Virus genome (UHGV): UHGV-0276404
Reading direction: 5' to 3' (one strand)
Origin: a virus
Length of the DNA stretch: 14,666 bases
Below the pieces are notes generated by a model. That model searched no databases. It saw only the letters and a program-made list of their open reading frames with translations, and was not told the DNA's origin. Shown one piece after another: positions 3,684-14,020 of this stretch (position 1 is its first letter; each line of letters starts with the position of its first letter). A program made the translations under genes and the position numbers.

Positions 3684-3701
3684 AGGCCGCAAGAGCGGCC
3701 T
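3684..3701. terminator. Bidirectional GC hairpin AGGCCGC-AAGA-GCGGCCT between convergent genes
   Basis: 7-bp GC-rich stem with 4-nt loop and T-rich flanks on both strands; near-identical to the hairpin at 6553-6570. Confidence 0.55.
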
Positions 3702-4428
3702 ATCGTTTCGCTTTGTGCTCATCCCAGCACGTTTTGCACCATGCCATTAATCCGTCCGCATTTTGATTATTAGGGTAAAAGCTGGTTCGTTTTCTGCGGA
3801 CATTACAAATTGGGCACCACTTCATATGGCGTGTATTCTTTGGGCCATCGAGACACCTTGCACACCACTTAGTCAATCCATCTGGATTTTTTGACGATTT
3901 CCTGAATTTTTCATATGGTAGGTTTATTCTGCATCGCAAGCACTGCTTGCTACCACTTGAAACTCTGTTAGCTGATTCTTCTTTTGGCGGCGATACAGAA
4001 GGTATTCTTGCTGGCTCTGATACTGCCTGAGGTGCTTTTTTAGATGACTGAGACGATATGTCATCACCAGGGAATCTTCCATGATATGCCGGACGCGTTG
4101 ACACTCCAGGTGGAAGCTCAGCTGTAAACGGCTTTGGCTGAATCAGTTGCCTCTCTTTTGCTAACTCCTGCTGTTTATAATATGTCTGGATTACCGCACT
4201 ATCATAAGCAGGAGGTGCGGAAATATTAGGCGCATTACCTCCAGTTTTTTGAAACTGAGTAGAGGTGTGTTCTATCACCTGTGTACGATTAATCGTTATC
4301 TCCCCATCTTCGGTCTTTATCGTTTTGTTATGATTAACGACCGTACGATCAGAGATCTTAGTCTTGTTCTGGTTGATAACGTAAATAATCACCGCAACCA
4401 CACCAACAACTATCCAGAAAACTTCCAT
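3700..4428 (-). CDS. Membrane-anchored protein with four C-terminal CxxC motifs (two zinc-ribbon-like modules); function unknown
   Basis: 242-aa ORF; ATG at 4428 with GAGG 7 nt upstream. N-terminal hydrophobic helix (MEVFWIVVGVVAVIIYVI), then CLRC...WCARC...WCPIC...WCKTC. Transcribed divergently from the antirepressor. Confidence 0.7.
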   Translation of the reverse strand: MEVFWIVVGVVAVIIYVINQNKTKISDRTVVNHNKTIKTEDGEITINRTQVIEHTSTQFQKTGGNAPNISAPPAYDSAVIQTYYKQQELAKERQLIQPKPFTAELPPGVSTRPAYHGRFPGDDISSQSSKKAPQAVSEPARIPSVSPPKEESANRVSSGSKQCLRCRINLPYEKFRKSSKNPDGLTKWCARCLDGPKNTRHMKWCPICNVRRKRTSFYPNNQNADGLMAWCKTCWDEHKAKR

Positions 4429-5752: not shown

Positions 5753-6292
5753 GTGTTAAGTGAAGAAATGCAATTTGCCATGGCTGTGGCTCAAATCGTA
5801 AGTGCAGTCGCGGTTTCGCTTGGCTTGTTCATAGCTATCGCTACTATTATTTATAATGTAAATACAGCGAGAAAAGTACACACTTCAGTATTCCTTGGTG
5901 AAAGCAGGTTTGATGTAGATTATAAGAAAGGCCTATCTACTATGCGCCGCATTCACGAGTCGAACAAATCATTCCGCTCTTATATGTATCCAAGCAATGG
6001 GCAGGCTGATCTTACGGATGAAGAAAAGATAGAGAAGAGAGAAATAATTTACTGTCTAGGTTTCTACGAACGCATGGCTGTGAGCGTGAAGCGGAAAACT
6101 TATGATGAGACCATGATTAAGGAAGTATTTTACAGCTCCGTTGTAAATAACTATCAGATTGCGCTACCTCTTATACAAGCTATTAGAGAAAAAGAAAACA
6201 TAAACACATATTTTAAAGAATATGAATGGTTAGCCACACGATGGAAGGATTGTCCATTGAAGGATAAATCCCCGTGGTACAAGTTTTGGTAA
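5753..6292 (+). CDS. Membrane-anchored moron protein (179 aa), unknown function
   Basis: GTG at 5753 with GGAGA at 5742-5746 (alternative ATG at 5768). N-terminal hydrophobic helix (AMAVAQIVSAVAVSLGLFIAIATIIY) followed by a charged soluble domain; AT-rich by eye. Confidence 0.7.
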   Translation: MLSEEMQFAMAVAQIVSAVAVSLGLFIAIATIIYNVNTARKVHTSVFLGESRFDVDYKKGLSTMRRIHESNKSFRSYMYPSNGQADLTDEEKIEKREIIYCLGFYERMAVSVKRKTYDETMIKEVFYSSVVNNYQIALPLIQAIREKENINTYFKEYEWLATRWKDCPLKDKSPWYKFW

Positions 6293-6316
6293 GCCCGCGG
6301 CGAGGGCTTTTTTGTG
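6291..6316 (+). terminator. Intrinsic terminator AAGCCC-GCGGCGA-GGGCTT + TTTTTG
   Basis: Hairpin directly after the stop at 6290-6292, followed by a U-run. Confidence 0.5.
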
Positions 6317-6385
6317 GACGAAACAAAAGTCAGTGCTACACTCATTGACGCCACATTGAGGTGGCTTATAGATGGAAATGTCACA

Positions 6386-6547
6386 ATGAAAAAAGCATTT
6401 GCTGCACTGTTCGTTTTGTTGTCTCTGGTAGCTTCAACTCAGGCCTTTGCCGGTCGTTGTCAGCACGACAGCGATACTGCCGCTGACGGCTCCCGCTGCG
6501 GTGGGCGTTCTGCGGATTCCCGCCCTGGCGGCGGTGGCATTCGTTAA
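6386..6547 (+). CDS. Small secreted peptide (53-aa precursor with a cleavable signal peptide; ~31-aa mature peptide with two Cys and a Gly-rich tail)
   Basis: MKKAFAALFVLLSLVASTQAFA / GRCQHDSDTAADGSRCGGRSADSRPGGGGIR. The ORF-track start (6314) overlaps the preceding terminator, so the ATG at 6386 is preferred. SD is weak (GGA 9 nt upstream), and the apparent TTGACG / TATAGA promoter lies so close that the mRNA may be near-leaderless. Confidence 0.5.
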   Translation: MKKAFAALFVLLSLVASTQAFAGRCQHDSDTAADGSRCGGRSADSRPGGGGIR

Positions 6548-6552
6548 AAACA

Positions 6553-6570
6553 AGGCCGCGAAAGCGGCCT
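6553..6570. terminator. Bidirectional GC hairpin AGGCCGC-GAAA-GCGGCCT between convergent genes
   Basis: Paralogue of the 3684-3701 hairpin; T-rich flanks on both strands (TGTTTTTAA on the minus side, TTCCTTTT on the plus side). Confidence 0.6.
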
Positions 6571-6582
6571 GTGACATGTCAC
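6571..6582. repeat. Perfect 12-bp palindrome GTGACATGTCAC (copy 1 of 3)
   Basis: Read directly; immediately abuts the terminator hairpin and overlaps the stop codon of the 6579-6875 gene. Confidence 0.9.
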
Positions 6583-6875
6583 GTTCCTTTTCTGAATGAT
6601 AGCCATTCGAAAAATGATGACATTCCACCGCAGACAATAGCAAAGATGATCCCACCAAAGAAGAGAAGGCCAGCCTGCCACCACTCCCACCGCCATACAT
6701 CCACAGCGCCAACCATACCAACAATCGCTCCAACAAATGGAATATAGCTCACGATGAAAGCAATGGGGGCTGCAATTATCCAGTGCAATCCCCACCATGA
6801 TTCAAGCCCAGCCATAATTGCTGCCAACTGAAAAAGACCAACGACGATATAAACAATGAATCCTATCGCTTGCAT
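6579..6875 (-). CDS. Small multi-pass membrane protein (98 aa), last gene of the virion operon; holin-like or immunity-like
   Basis: ATG at 6875 with GGTGA 4 nt upstream. Three to four hydrophobic segments, Trp-rich (WRWEWW). Overlapping alternative-frame ORFs (6434-6736, 6544-6798) are judged spurious. Confidence 0.6.
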   Translation of the reverse strand: MQAIGFIVYIVVGLFQLAAIMAGLESWWGLHWIIAAPIAFIVSYIPFVGAIVGMVGAVDVWRWEWWQAGLLFFGGIIFAIVCGGMSSFFEWLSFRKGT

Positions 6876-6883
6876 GTAGTCAC

Positions 6884-7255
6884 CTATTTATTTTTTAGCT
6901 TTTCATCCATAGCAAATTTCGTTGCTAAATTTTCACCATCTGATTTAAGCCTTCCAATAAATTTCCGCTTACCGTCTTGAGAGGAATTTAAATAGTATAT
7001 ATTTGATTCAGCAATCTTTTGTATGTACGACTCGCATGACACAACCGAAGCTTTGGATATAGAATCAACACTTTCTCCTGTCTTAGCGTATTTTACGACC
7101 TGCCCTTTTATACATCCAAAATATTCCATTGTATGCTTTTTAGAATCCTCCAGTGTTTCCCCATTTTTAGGCTGAATCATTAACGGTGAGGTAGTATCTG
7201 CAAAAGATTTTACAACTAAAAGCATAAGAATAATCATTAATATAATTCTGTTCAT
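6884..7255 (-). CDS. Secreted/periplasmic protein (123 aa) with a signal peptidase I-type signal peptide; AT-rich
   Basis: ATG at 7255 lies 1 nt after the TAA of the transglycosylase gene, with GGGAAG upstream (translational coupling). MNRIILMIILMLLVVKSFA / DTT... signal peptide, no lipobox; two Cys in the mature part. Confidence 0.65.
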   Translation of the reverse strand: MNRIILMIILMLLVVKSFADTTSPLMIQPKNGETLEDSKKHTMEYFGCIKGQVVKYAKTGESVDSISKASVVSCESYIQKIAESNIYYLNSSQDGKRKFIGRLKSDGENLATKFAMDEKLKNK

Positions 7256-7256
7256 A

Positions 7257-8366
7257 TTACTTCCCTAGCATGAACTGCGATGGTGGGATCAGAAAGTCGT
7301 TACCCTGTTCACGCTCAACACGGCGCTGATAACGCTCAAGAGAGCCTGGGTCGCCAATCTGTTTAATCCAGCCGTCAACCTTTCCTGGGCCAGCGTTATA
7401 GGCAGCTACTGCCAGAACCGGGTTATTGTCGTATTTCTTCATCTGCGCGCCGAAATAAGCTTGCCCCAAGCGGGCATTATAGCGCGGGTCATTCAACCAT
7501 TTATCTCGGTCCCACGGCACACCAGCAAGGCGGGCAGCTTCGGGGCCAGTATCTTCCGTCACCTGCGCTACGCCAACAGCGCCTTTTGGCGACACCAGAG
7601 GTGTTCCGTCCTTTCCGTACTGATTTCCGCCACTCTCCTGCCAGATTATTGCAGAGAATAACTGCGCCTCACTCGGTGTATCGGTTACCTCAATCTTGCC
7701 GTTCGGCCCCATCATCTGTTGATACATCGGCACATACCACGCCTCCGCCGCACCGTTCGCGGCATTCTCGCGCCACGAAACCCAGTTCTGTTCGATCTCT
7801 TCCTGACTCTGGCCGTGGGCTTCGCCGTAAGCGATGATGCTATGATATGCCTTCAATCCTGCCTGGTTTGCCATTGTCGGGTTACGGAACTGCATCGATA
7901 GGTTTTTTAGTGTCGCATCCTGCATATCCGCCTCATACTGGCGAACCTGTCCTATTTCGTACCTCCCGGCCTGCGTAGTGAACTGAATACGCTGTTGCTG
8001 CGCCTGCTGCATGAAAGCATTACGAGCCTGTTCATCTGGCAGCGACATAGCCAGTTGTTCAACCTGAGCATCAAACTGCTGCGTATACTCATGGCCTTTT
8101 CCAATAGCATTTTTCCCTTTCAGGTTAAGCAATCCTGTTTCAGGATTATTCAGCAGATCACTGCCTGTCTGACTGAGTTTAAGGGATGCCTCCTGAACAA
8201 AGGCAATATTGGCACGCTGTTTTGCCTGACCAAAAACATCAATTGCCTCTGTCCCTGCCCGAACAAAAGCATCACCAATACCTGGCTGAGAAAACGTCTG
8301 CAAGCCTGCTGACTGAACTCCACGACTCTCAACCTGACGTCCGGATACTGTTGGTACGACTGGCAT
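7257..8366 (-). CDS. Internal-virion-type protein with C-terminal lytic transglycosylase (SLT) domain
   Basis: Start ATG at 8366-8364 overlaps the upstream stop (TAATG) with GGAGGA 5 nt upstream; the ORF-track N-terminal extension to 8441 is rejected. SLT motifs IIWQESGGNQYG...GAVGVAQV...AYNAGPGKV; Gln-rich N-terminal region. Confidence 0.85.
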   Translation of the reverse strand: MPVVPTVSGRQVESRGVQSAGLQTFSQPGIGDAFVRAGTEAIDVFGQAKQRANIAFVQEASLKLSQTGSDLLNNPETGLLNLKGKNAIGKGHEYTQQFDAQVEQLAMSLPDEQARNAFMQQAQQQRIQFTTQAGRYEIGQVRQYEADMQDATLKNLSMQFRNPTMANQAGLKAYHSIIAYGEAHGQSQEEIEQNWVSWRENAANGAAEAWYVPMYQQMMGPNGKIEVTDTPSEAQLFSAIIWQESGGNQYGKDGTPLVSPKGAVGVAQVTEDTGPEAARLAGVPWDRDKWLNDPRYNARLGQAYFGAQMKKYDNNPVLAVAAYNAGPGKVDGWIKQIGDPGSLERYQRRVEREQGNDFLIPPSQFMLGK

Positions 8367-9375: not shown

Positions 9376-9965
9376 CAGAATCCCCCAACAGTAAGGCGAG
9401 GAATAACGGCAAGAACAGACAGCGGCAACGGATCAAGCTGACGGATTTTTACACGTCCGTTTTTGCCCCAGTTACTGTCCAGTTTCACTTCTACTTTTCC
9501 GGTAGCATCATCAACAGGATCATCGTAGAACTCGAATTCACGCTGTGGATATTCGTACCATTTACCGCCGGGCGTAGTCGCCCAGATGCCGCGACTGGCA
9601 TTCACAACCAGAGTAACGGAGGGGATCACCTGTTTTTTGTCCAGCAGCGTTTCCTGTCCGTTAATGTTGATATCCAGTGTTTCGAATTCAGCAGTTATTG
9701 GCAGGCCGATGTGCACTACAGCCCCCGGAGATTCCAGCGTGACGGCACCTCCGGAAACCACTTTCTGTGGTTCCACGTTCGCATCAGAGAGAATGTTTAC
9801 GGTCTGGCCTTCAAGATGAGACAGGCCTCCAAATGTCCGGCGCGCCATCTGCCAGTTCGTGGTGGCCACATTCCTGAGGGATGGCGGGACGTTCCTGTTA
9901 GCACGAACCACTACAGCGGTATTGCTGGTTACAGAAATAATGTCGCAACGTAATTCTTTTGACAC
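9375..9965 (-). CDS. Hypothetical structural-operon protein; 5' end and true start uncertain (possible fusion remnant)
   Basis: The frame is open from 9965, but the first in-frame start is GTG with no SD and it overlaps the portal-like ORF by 37 nt in another frame. The internal ATG at 9848 also lacks a good SD. Confidence 0.45.
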   Translation of the reverse strand: MSKELRCDIISVTSNTAVVVRANRNVPPSLRNVATTNWQMARRTFGGLSHLEGQTVNILSDANVEPQKVVSGGAVTLESPGAVVHIGLPITAEFETLDININGQETLLDKKQVIPSVTLVVNASRGIWATTPGGKWYEYPQREFEFYDDPVDDATGKVEVKLDSNWGKNGRVKIRQLDPLPLSVLAVIPRLTVGGF

Positions 9966-10459
9966 CTCATCGCCAGTATCAGGATCAGTTCCGGTATCGG
10001 GAATGGCATTGTGCGAATGATGTCCTCGTCATCCTCCAGCACTGCCATTGCACCAGTGCTGTATGTGCCGAGGCTTCCGTATAACTGCGGCAGCGACTGA
10101 TAGAGATTCGACTTATTGAACATATCGTTCATGCGGTTCTGCACCGCCTCAAGCCACAACTTAACAGGGCCATAATCCATCATTTCAGGATCTGGCGTAG
10201 CCAGGCGAAACCACGGACGCGCGGGGCTTGTGATGCCTGACATCATGCCGCTGGCGAGAGTGCGCGCCGCCATAGTCCCGGTCGAATCAATAATGCGTGT
10301 ATTGCGTCGATCGTTACGGTTGACCTCAGAAGTCAGAAAGCGGGAACCACGCGGGTTGATGTAATCACTCAACTCGCGCCAGTGCGGCTCGAACGACTGA
10401 CGCTCGCTTTCAAGTTGTGCGAACTGTTTGTTCAATCGCTCTTTAGTTGTTTCCGCCAT
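9929..10459 (-). pseudogene. Portal (head-tail connector) N-terminal fragment, T7 gp8-like, only ~176 aa
   Basis: ATG at 10459 with GGAG 8 nt upstream. ERQSFEPHWRELSDYINP...TLASGMMSGITSPARPWFRLA matches the N-terminal pattern of podovirus portals as I recall T7 gp8 (DRAPYETRAQNCAQYTIP...LASKLMLALFPMQTWMRLT). The ORF ends after 176 aa, whereas full portals are 500+ aa. Confidence 0.5.
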
Positions 10460-11107: not shown

Positions 11108-11184
11108 GTGGCATTAGCTCAGTTGGACAGAGCAACCGCCTTCTAAGCGGTTGGTCGCAGGTTCGAATCCTGCATGCCACGCCA
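11108..11184 (+). tRNA. tRNA-Arg (anticodon UCU, reads AGA)
   Basis: Hand-folded cloverleaf: acceptor GTGGCAT/ATGCCAC, D-arm GCTC-AGTTGGACA-GAGC, anticodon arm ACCGC-CTTCTAA-GCGGT, variable TGGTC, T-arm GCAGG-TTCGAAT-CCTGC, discriminator G and encoded CCA. 77 nt. Confidence 0.9.
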
Positions 11185-11743: not shown

Positions 11744-11755
11744 GTGACATGTCAC
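11744..11755. repeat. Perfect 12-bp palindrome GTGACATGTCAC (copy 2 of 3)
   Basis: Read directly; 5 nt after the stop of the 11383-11739 gene and directly before a hairpin terminator. Confidence 0.9.
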
Positions 11756-14008: not shown

Positions 14009-14020
14009 GTGACATGTCAC
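14009..14020. repeat. Perfect 12-bp palindrome GTGACATGTCAC (copy 3 of 3)
   Basis: Read directly; overlaps the stop codon of the 14017-14355 gene, 41 nt from the terS-proximal terminator. Confidence 0.9.

What the first reader, a model, noticed from the sequence alone, without database searches (positions are those of the whole stretch)
6579..7255. AT-rich exported + membrane protein pair translationally coupled to the virion transglycosylase gene
The 123-aa signal-peptide protein starts 1 nt after the SLT protein's stop with its SD inside that gene, and the 98-aa multi-pass membrane protein follows 8 nt later. Both look much more AT-rich than the upstream structural genes, as expected for an inserted moron. 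Their attachment to the late virion operon means they are made during lytic growth. Plausible roles are a holin-type or lysis-timing function, a periplasmic inhibitor protecting against the phage's own or a competitor's muralytic enzyme, or superinfection exclusion. I cannot assign a family.
Basis: inference. Interest (0 to 1): 0.5.

Follow-up and report, generated by a model that had tools for sequence, protein, structure and literature searches.

The report
Two small envelope-protein genes in a decayed prophage
Two small genes, one for a secreted protein and one for a membrane protein, sit in a swap-in slot just after the DNA-injection genes of a broken E. coli prophage; their function is unproven, but the most likely role is blocking entry of other phages.

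Summary
Both ORFs are real, on the minus strand: 123 aa (7255..6884, cleavable signal peptide) and 98 aa (6875..6579, four hydrophobic helices). Three corrections apply.

1. Only the 123-aa gene is strongly AT-rich (32.8% GC). The 98-aa gene (46.5%) equals the window mean.
2. The upstream "transglycosylase gene" is an in-frame deletion remnant. In intact relatives the 123-aa gene follows the third ejection-protein gene (about 849 aa), and this prophage lacks about 12 kb of virion genes.
3. The two genes are not an obligate pair. Each occurs alone, and they occur together only in E. coli and Salmonella.

Both occupy a variable slot in epsilon15/phiV10-type (Uetakevirus) prophages. The slot lies between the last ejection-protein gene and a conserved 12-bp palindrome plus terminator. 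Every arrangement examined holds a small exported or membrane protein there, including a Rap1a immunity protein in Serratia.

Neither protein matches any characterised family or fold. A holin role is unlikely because a full lysis cassette lies elsewhere. The best guess, about 40%, is envelope-level exclusion of incoming phages, acting like P22 SieA and T4 Imm/Spackle without being related to them. This is a moderately interesting, testable, new accessory gene family.

The parts
6884..7255 (-). Gene for a 123-aa secreted (periplasmic) protein. Signal peptide is residues 1-19 (nt 7255-7199). The mature protein is about 104 aa, all-helical, with two invariant cysteines (C48, C74). The family is absent from Pfam, PHROGs, NCBIfam and PADLOC.
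   Evidence: ORF. GC 32.8%. 22 close homologues and a remote subfamily of about 102 aa. AF2 pLDDT 87.5. No family hit. dN/dS 0.10.
6579..6875 (-). Gene for a 98-aa polytopic inner-membrane protein of PHROG 3075 (function unknown). It is Trp- and Gly-rich and carries a conserved W-x-W-x-W-W-Q loop.
   Evidence: ORF. phrog_3075, E 1.6e-54. 52 homologues across Enterobacterales. Alignment A3. Hydropathy. AF2 pLDDT 90.1, four helices.
7257..8366 (-). Upstream ORF: a 369-aa in-frame deletion fusion. It joins SLT-domain ejection protein residues 1-341 to the last roughly 30 residues of the third ejection protein. The junction is at 7351/7352.
   Evidence: BLASTP against the intact E. coli SW070919 proteins. 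blastn piece boundaries. The same fusion occurs in at least 24 public contigs. Pfam SLT, E 4.8e-18.
7260..7266 (-). Ribosome-binding site (AGGGAAG) of the 123-aa gene, inside the last codons of the upstream ORF.
   Evidence: Sequence read directly. The identical junction occurs in Klebsiella.
6880..6885 (-). Ribosome-binding site (AGGTGA) of the 98-aa gene, overlapping the TAG stop of the 123-aa gene.
   Evidence: Sequence read directly. The same sequence precedes the 98-aa gene in E. coli 4/1-1, which lacks the 123-aa gene.
6571..6582 (.). 12-bp perfect palindrome GTGACATGTCAC overlapping the stop codon of the 98-aa gene. It marks the conserved right-hand boundary of the slot.
   Evidence: Three copies in the window against 0.04 expected. 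Present at the end of the slot in epsilon15, phiV10, Klebsiella, Cronobacter, Citrobacter and Scandinavium loci.
6543..6570 (-). Rho-independent terminator (7-bp stem with 6 G-C pairs, then a T-run) that ends the late or ejection operon.

Best explanation
These are two unrelated, independently mobile accessory genes. They sit in a variable cassette slot at the 3' end of the ejection-protein operon of an epsilon15/phiV10-type (Uetakevirus) prophage. The slot runs from the stop codon of the third ejection-protein gene to a conserved GTGACATGTCAC palindrome plus terminator.

In this window the prophage is defective. Two deletions have removed about 12 kb of virion genes and placed the slot next to a truncated SLT gene.

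The 123-aa protein is exported to the periplasm. The 98-aa protein inserts in the inner membrane. These are the two compartments that an incoming podovirus must bridge with its ejected proteins.

Most likely mechanism (inferred, not shown): the proteins interfere with assembly or function of that trans-envelope DNA conduit. They would then exclude superinfecting phages of the same kind. This is what the P22 SieA inner-membrane protein does from the equivalent genome position, and what the T4 pair Imm (membrane) and Spackle (periplasm) does.

Shown: gene reality, export signals, the syntenic slot, sporadic distribution, purifying selection, a separate lysis cassette, and the deletions.

Inferred: the target, the phenotype, and when the genes are expressed.
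For: Position:
- Close and remote relatives of the 123-aa protein (22-90% identity) lie within about 160 nt downstream of the third ejection-protein gene, and within 34 nt (mostly 1 nt) at every locus except L019. Hosts are E. coli, Klebsiella, Salmonella, Phytobacter, Serratia, K. oxytoca, Citrobacter and Scandinavium, plus one unnamed contig.
- The 98-aa family holds the same position in E. coli, Klebsiella phage BUCT711, Cronobacter, and a different Salmonella podophage.
- The slot always encodes a small envelope protein. Examples are epsilon15 gp18 (64 aa, 2 TM), phiV10 p21 (46 aa, 2 TM), an unannotated 57-aa 2-TM ORF, and Rap1a in Serratia.

Envelope targeting:
- The signal-peptidase site is conserved, and the Serratia homologue has a lipobox.
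- Hydropathy and AF2 models support the membrane and periplasmic assignments.

Accessory status:
- The 123-aa gene occurs in 7 of 5,426 E. coli genomes. The 98-aa region occurs in several hundred.

Selection:
- dN/dS is 0.10.
- Both genes are intact in a decaying prophage lineage found in at least 24 contigs.

Analogy:
- P22 sieA lies between the last ejection gene (16) and the tailspike gene (9). SieA is a 3-TM inner-membrane protein that blocks DNA injection, and escape mutations map to ejection proteins (PMC10883804).
- T4 Spackle is a periplasmic inhibitor of the virion lysozyme gp5 (PMC7677548).
Against: - No functional data exist, and there is no homology to SieA (hhalign probability 0.3%), Spackle or any solved structure.
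- No promoter-like site was found upstream of either gene. Both are co-oriented with, and coupled to, the late operon, whereas P22 sieA has its own promoter and opposite orientation. Expression in lysogens, which an exclusion role for a temperate phage needs, is not shown.
- Synteny with the ejection genes could reflect only a convenient recombination slot bounded by conserved sequence.
- A T6SS-type immunity gene (Rap1a) in the same slot shows that the slot can hold functions unrelated to phage entry.
Confidence: 0.4

Rival explanations
1. Lysogenic-conversion immunity against non-phage attack. The periplasmic 123-aa protein, and perhaps the membrane protein, would neutralise envelope-acting toxins from competitors, such as T6SS peptidoglycan hydrolases or bacteriocins.
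For: - A genuine Rap1a immunity-family gene (PF18602, E 2e-12) lies in the same slot, directly upstream of the 189-aa lipoprotein homologue, in a Serratia marcescens prophage.
- The 123-aa protein is small, helical, periplasmic and has a conserved cysteine pair.
- Both genes persist in a defective prophage lineage.
- The gene is AT-rich, like many conversion genes.
Against: - The 123-aa family shows no similarity to Rap1a (hhalign probability 2.5%, signal peptide only) or to any solved immunity protein.
- No promoter was detected.
- The family has kept its position behind the ejection genes down to 22% identity, and the only other context found was another mobile element (Sodalis, next to Rep3 and RecT).
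Confidence: 0.2
2. Lysis control. The 98-aa protein would be a holin, pinholin or antiholin, and the 123-aa protein a periplasmic lysis-timing factor in the manner of T4 RI. Both would be made with the late genes.
For: - Both genes lie on the late transcript and are translationally coupled.
- There is a weak Pfam hit to Phage_holin_5_2 (E 0.027).
- The 98-aa protein is small, polytopic and has glycine-zipper-like motifs.
Against: - The hit scores 15.2 bits against a cut-off of 29.2, and only 4 of 26 family members show it.
- Relatives have a full lysis cassette elsewhere: Phage_holin_8, Phage_holin_3_7, endolysin and a DUF2514 spanin.
- The genes are dispensable and exchangeable among close relatives.
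- There is no charged C-terminal tail typical of holins.
Confidence: 0.12
3. The 123-aa protein is a dedicated inhibitor of the phage's own SLT lytic transglycosylase, acting as a Spackle-type exclusion factor or for self-protection.
For: - The long (123-aa) subfamily, which carries the conserved N-terminal IQPKNGE motif, was found only behind ejection modules with an 872-898-aa SLT-domain protein. This held in all five genera checked.
- The protein is located in the periplasm.
Against: - Short-subfamily members sit behind ejection proteins with no Pfam SLT domain in Citrobacter, Scandinavium and L019.
- The association may reflect only linkage.
Confidence: 0.1
4. The proteins are virion or assembly components, in line with the gene position.
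For: The position at the end of the structural operon is conserved.
Against: - A cleavable Sec signal, a lipobox in one homologue, and polytopic membrane topology send the proteins out of the cytoplasm, where tailed-phage virions assemble.
- Both genes are absent from many viable relatives, and the 123-aa gene is absent from all deposited phage genomes.
Confidence: 0.03

Closest known systems
Phage P22 SieA (superinfection exclusion, inner membrane)
   Same: - The gene lies between the last ejection-protein gene and the tailspike gene of a temperate podovirus.
- It encodes a small polytopic inner-membrane protein.
- It is present in only some relatives and occurs as several very divergent sequence types (PMC10883804).
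   Different: - There is no sequence relationship (hhalign probability 0.3%), and the FxRYPxEAxxFNK motif is absent.
- The protein here is 98 aa, against 162-164 aa for SieA.
- P22 sieA is on the opposite strand with its own promoter. Here the gene is co-oriented with and coupled to the late operon.
- The phage lineage is different (Uetakevirus, not Lederbergvirus).
Phage T4 Imm and Spackle (Sp)
   Same: A small membrane protein plus a small signal-peptide periplasmic protein act at the envelope against incoming phage. Spackle binds the virion peptidoglycan hydrolase gp5 (PMC7677548).
   Different: - No sequence or fold match was found.
- The T4 genes are early genes of a lytic myovirus and are not adjacent.
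- Here the two genes also occur separately, and family members exist in phages without a detectable virion SLT.
Morons, that is accessory genes inserted in late operons (for example lambda bor and lom, HK97 gp15). This comparison rests on my own knowledge.
   Same: The 123-aa gene is AT-rich relative to its neighbours and sporadically present among close relatives. A terminator follows it, and its product goes to the envelope.
   Different: - No own promoter was detected, and the gene is tightly translationally coupled.
- The family has stayed in one slot through deep divergence, rather than appearing as a one-off insertion.
- AT-richness is a stable family trait.
Rap1a T6SS immunity proteins (PF18602)
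   Same: Rap1a is a small periplasmic protein, and a Rap1a gene occupies the same slot in a Serratia prophage.
   Different: The 123-aa family has no detectable similarity to Rap1a.
PHROG 3075
   Same: The 98-aa protein is a full-length member (E 1.6e-54).
   Different: The PHROG has no assigned function, so membership names the protein without explaining it.

Membership tests
P22 SieA family | Sequence homology to SieA types A-C, including the FxRYPxEAxxFNK motif | tested here: not met
   hhalign of the 98-aa family profile against P22 SieA gave probability 0.3%. The motif is absent from alignment A3.
P22 SieA family | Gene located between the last ejection-protein gene and the tailspike gene | tested here: met
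   Window gene order, intact relatives and P22 layout.
P22 SieA family | Own promoter and expression from the prophage | tested here: inconclusive
   No promoter-like site on the minus strand upstream of either gene in a consensus scan. The scan is weak evidence, and expression was not measured.
P22 SieA family | Blocks DNA injection, with escape mutations mapping to ejection proteins | not testable with these tools
   Requires phage challenge experiments.
T4 Spackle | Sequence or fold similarity to Spackle | tested here: not met
T4 Spackle | Periplasmic location through a cleavable signal peptide | tested here: met
   Hydrophobic residues 1-22 with a conserved small-x-small cleavage site (VKSFA|D, KASA|D) across homologues. 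This is a prediction only.
T4 Spackle | Binds and inhibits the virion peptidoglycan hydrolase | not testable with these tools
   No complex prediction or assay was available. Indirect evidence against generality: family members occur with ejection proteins that lack a Pfam SLT domain.
Holins (Pfam Phage_holin_5_2 and others) | Score above the Pfam gathering threshold | tested here: not met
   15.2 bits against a cut-off of 29.2, and only 4 of 26 family members give even this weak hit.
Holins (Pfam Phage_holin_5_2 and others) | Adjacent to the endolysin in the lysis cassette | tested here: not met
   The lysis cassette (two holin-family genes, GH19 or lysozyme, DUF2514 spanin) lies beyond the tailspike gene in relatives.
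Rap1a immunity proteins (PF18602) | Match to the Pfam model or a Rap1a profile | tested here: not met
   No Pfam hit for any of the 17 family members. hhalign against the Serratia Rap1a gave probability 2.5%.
Periplasmic lysozyme inhibitors (Ivy, MliC/PliC, PliG) | Sequence or fold similarity | tested here: not met
PHROG 3075 (98-aa protein) | Full-length match to the profile | tested here: met
   E 1.6e-54, residues 1-98 aligned to profile positions 1-98 of 98.
Moron (accessory insertion in a late operon) | Base composition differs from the flanks, and the gene is present in some close relatives and absent from others | tested here: met
   The 123-aa gene is 32.8% GC against 50-54% for its neighbours and occurs in 7 of 5,426 E. 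coli genomes. The 98-aa gene meets the composition criterion only weakly (46.5% GC).
Moron (accessory insertion in a late operon) | Own promoter and own terminator | tested here: inconclusive
   A terminator is present. No promoter-like site was found.

The most novel reading that the evidence does not exclude
The slot behind the ejection-protein genes of Uetakevirus-type phages may be a dedicated, exchangeable anti-entry locus. It is bounded by the conserved end of the third ejection-protein gene and a GTGACATGTCAC palindrome with a terminator. Its unrelated small occupants would each jam a different part of the incoming podovirus DNA conduit. Those occupants are the periplasmic 123-aa family, the 98-aa membrane family and several 2-TM mini-proteins. 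On this reading the 123-aa family would be the first periplasmic protein known to block ejectosome assembly in short-tailed phages.
Probability: 0.25. Interest if true: 0.65.

Novelty: new member of a known kind. Interest (0 to 1): 0.4.

Why it matters
If the exclusion reading holds, these would be two new protein families that block podovirus genome delivery, one acting in the periplasm and one at the inner membrane. [quoted passage not shown] The proteins would give handles on how the gp14/15/16-type conduit assembles. They would also help explain resistance of E. coli, Klebsiella and Salmonella lysogens to related phages, which matters for phage therapy host range. The slot architecture also shows how small envelope genes are swapped between prophages. 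If the reading fails, this is simply one more uncharacterised accessory gene pair.

Tried and rejected
Searches that gave nothing useful:
- Pfam, PHROGs, NCBIfam and PADLOC scans of both proteins and of family alignments. The only result was PHROG 3075, which has no assigned function.
- A profile search of 1.84 billion representative proteins found only 17 hits. One was a spurious match to a repetitive 2,352-aa protein.
- Foldseek against BFVD for both models gave nothing with E below 0.001.
- Profile searches of PDB sequences gave nothing.
- hhalign against Rap1a and against P22 SieA was negative.
- Literature searches for accession numbers and for Uetakevirus exclusion genes found nothing specific.

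- The afdb50 library was unavailable.
- The search for related loci with the divergent alignment failed. A narrower alignment of short-subfamily members, A4, was used instead.

Rejected ideas:
- A holin role, because a separate lysis cassette exists and the Pfam hit is sub-threshold.
- A structural role, because of the export signals and the sporadic presence.
- An obligate two-gene system, because each gene occurs alone.
- That the Klebsiella loci hide a 98-aa homologue. The 98-aa ORF there is an epsilon15 gp19-like protein.

Full report

Both ORFs are on the minus strand: 7255..6884 (123 aa) and 6875..6579 (98 aa). The upstream ORF ends with TAA at 7259-7257, one nucleotide before the 123-aa ATG. 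A GGGAAG ribosome-binding site lies in its last codons.

The 123-aa gene ends with TAG at 6886-6884. Eight nucleotides separate that stop from the 98-aa ATG, and an AGGTGA site overlaps the stop. A strong rho-independent terminator follows the 98-aa gene (stem 6570..6553, 6 G-C pairs, then a T-run).

The 123-aa protein has one N-terminal hydrophobic segment ending VKSFA|D. The 98-aa protein has three long hydrophobic stretches, which AlphaFold2 models as four helices with pLDDT 90.

The composition claim holds for only one gene. The 123-aa gene is 32.8% GC (GC3 29%). The 98-aa gene is 46.5% GC, the window mean is 46.9%, and the virion genes are 50-54%.

**2. The surroundings change the picture.**

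The window is 99.9% identical to an epsilon15/phiV10-type (Uetakevirus) prophage of E. coli SW070919, inserted next to yfgI, but in four collinear pieces. Relative to that prophage the window lacks two segments:
- 5,758 bp, with the junction at window 7351/7352.
- 6,545 bp, with the junction at 9995-10003 and 9 bp of microhomology.

The window also lacks the IS3 element that interrupts the SW070919 tailspike gene.

The first deletion fuses residues 1-341 of the 873-aa SLT-domain ejection protein, in frame, to the last roughly 30 residues of the 849-aa third ejection protein (the PHROG hits agree). The second deletion joins the N-terminus of the portal gene to the C-terminus of a tail gene.

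The prophage cannot make virions. In intact relatives the 123-aa gene starts one nucleotide after the third ejection-protein gene.

The deletion is genuine and not an assembly artefact. The same 369-aa fusion protein, with the same neighbours, is found in at least 24 public contigs, and some of these show further decay.

**3. The two genes are independent residents of one slot.**

Distribution of the 123-aa gene:
- It is in 7 of 5,426 complete E. coli genomes and in none of 50,697 phage records.
- Close homologues (60-98% identity) exist in Klebsiella, Salmonella, Enterobacter, Phytobacter and Sodalis.
- A full profile search added a remote subfamily of about 102 aa and a 189-aa lipoprotein version.

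Position of the 123-aa family:
- In Klebsiella, Phytobacter, Salmonella, Serratia, K. oxytoca, Citrobacter, Scandinavium and one unnamed contig, the gene lies directly behind the third ejection-protein gene.
- The only exception found is a Sodalis contig, where it sits next to Rep3 and RecT genes.
- In Klebsiella and Phytobacter it is alone in the slot. In Salmonella, as in this window, the 98-aa gene follows it.

Distribution of the 98-aa family:
- It is PHROG 3075.
- It is much commoner: the region matches several hundred E. coli genomes and 7 phage records, including phiv142-3, HEMP4 and Klebsiella phage BUCT711.
- It sits in the same slot without the 123-aa gene in E. coli 4/1-1, phiv142-3, BUCT711, Cronobacter and a different Salmonella podophage.

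Other occupants of the slot:
- epsilon15 gp18, 64 aa with 2 TM helices.
- phiV10 p21, 46 aa with 2 TM helices.
- An unannotated but conserved 57-aa 2-TM ORF.
- A genuine Rap1a immunity-family gene in Serratia (PF18602, E 2e-12).

Boundaries of the slot:
- The right boundary is a perfect palindrome, GTGACATGTCAC, followed by a terminator. The palindrome is conserved from epsilon15 to Scandinavium.
- The left boundary is the conserved end of the third ejection-protein gene.

Conserved flanks of this kind would allow cassettes to be exchanged by homologous recombination. That last step is inference.

**4. What are the proteins?**

Neither protein matches a curated family in Pfam, NCBIfam or PADLOC. 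The 123-aa protein has no PHROG either.

The 123-aa model (pLDDT 87.5) has a signal helix, an extended conserved IQPKNGE segment, and a bundle of three to four helices. Only C48, C74 and the initiator Met are invariant across the whole family, which suggests a periplasmic disulfide.

Structure and sequence searches were uninformative:
- PDB sequence searches gave nothing.
- hhalign found no link to Rap1a or to P22 SieA.

The 123-aa gene is under purifying selection (dN/dS 0.10 against Klebsiella, dS 0.66). Every family member is 31-40% GC next to ejection genes of 49-57% GC, even at 22-30% protein identity. AT-richness is therefore a stable trait of the family and not only a sign of recent transfer.

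**5. Mechanism.**

*Excluded or unlikely roles.* A virion role is unlikely because both products leave the cytoplasm and both genes are dispensable among relatives.

A holin role is also unlikely. Relatives carry two holin-family genes, an endolysin and a spanin beyond the tailspike gene. The only holin hit is sub-threshold and appears in 4 of 26 family members.

A dedicated inhibitor of the phage's own SLT cannot be the general role. Short-subfamily members follow ejection proteins without a detectable SLT domain. The long subfamily, however, was found only with SLT-type modules, in all five genera checked.

*Best-supported reading.* I put envelope-level exclusion of incoming phages at about 0.4. 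The two products sit in the periplasm and the inner membrane. Podovirus ejection proteins must bridge exactly these compartments (PMC8954989).

P22 keeps sieA at the equivalent position. SieA is a 3-TM inner-membrane protein that blocks DNA injection, and escape from it maps to the ejection proteins. The gene is present in only some relatives, in several very divergent types (PMC10883804). T4 uses a membrane protein (Imm) together with a periplasmic inhibitor (Spackle) (PMC7677548).

*Evidence against this reading.*
- There is no homology to any of these proteins.
- No promoter was detected, and the genes are co-oriented with the late operon.
- A Rap1a gene in the same slot shows that it can hold immunity functions unrelated to phage entry. 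That is the main rival, at about 0.2.

**6. Novelty and verdict.**

The finding is a new, uncharacterised accessory gene family (123 aa) alongside a member of an unannotated PHROG (98 aa). Both lie in a slot whose design parallels the P22 sieA locus. I classify it as a new member of a known kind, namely prophage accessory or exclusion-type envelope genes.

Interest is moderate (0.4). The function is unproven, but the hypothesis can be tested directly with available phages.

Noticed in passing
window 6571-6582, 11744-11755 and 14009-14020: The 12-bp perfect palindrome GTGACATGTCAC occurs three times (0.04 expected by chance). Each copy directly follows or overlaps a stop codon, and at two sites a rho-independent terminator follows within 0-4 nt. 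The motif is conserved at the end of the ejection operon in epsilon15, phiV10, Klebsiella, Cronobacter, Citrobacter and Scandinavium loci. Its role is unknown; it could be an operator, a processing site or a recombination boundary.
   Followed up: partly
window 7351/7352 and 9995-10003: Two deletion junctions (5,758 bp and 6,545 bp missing relative to E. coli SW070919) make this a defective prophage. The resulting 369-aa SLT fusion protein retains almost the whole SLT domain and occurs in at least 24 public contigs, some with further decay.
   Followed up: yes
L002 about 9588-9762 (minus strand); also L003 and L025: An unannotated, conserved 57-aa ORF with two TM helices fills the slot between the third ejection-protein gene and the 98-aa gene. 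It is seen in E. coli 4/1-1, phage phiv142-3 and Klebsiella phage BUCT711.
   Followed up: partly
L015 6624-7004 (Serratia marcescens prophage): A Rap1a-family T6SS immunity gene (PF18602, E 2e-12) sits in the same slot, directly upstream of a 189-aa lipoprotein homologue of the 123-aa protein.
   Followed up: partly
window 6314-6547 (+): A convergent gene encodes a 53-77-aa secreted peptide with two cysteines (phrog_3117 and phrog_14503, 'membrane associated protein'). It is widespread in E. coli prophages. It gives a weak, sub-threshold hit to the His-Xaa-Ser repeat protein HxsA3 (E 0.0057), probably driven by the signal peptide.
   Followed up: no
window 5753-6292 (+) and 3700-4428 (-): Two further accessory genes lie between the slot and the tailspike gene. 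One is a DUF4760 protein with an N-terminal hydrophobic segment. The other is a 242-aa protein with an N-terminal hydrophobic segment and C-terminal zinc-ribbon or endonuclease VII-like repeats (phrog_6762). Neither has a PADLOC hit.
   Followed up: no
window 11108-11184 (+): A tRNA-Arg (anticodon UCU) gene lies inside the prophage, between the terminase and portal regions.
   Followed up: no
L005, L009, L015, L016, L019, L023 and L024 (123-aa family genes): Every member of the 123-aa family is 31-40% GC next to 49-57% GC ejection genes (41% GC upstream DNA in the Sodalis contig L009, which has no ejection genes), even at 22-30% protein identity. The low GC is therefore a long-maintained trait and not only a sign of recent acquisition.
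   Followed up: partly
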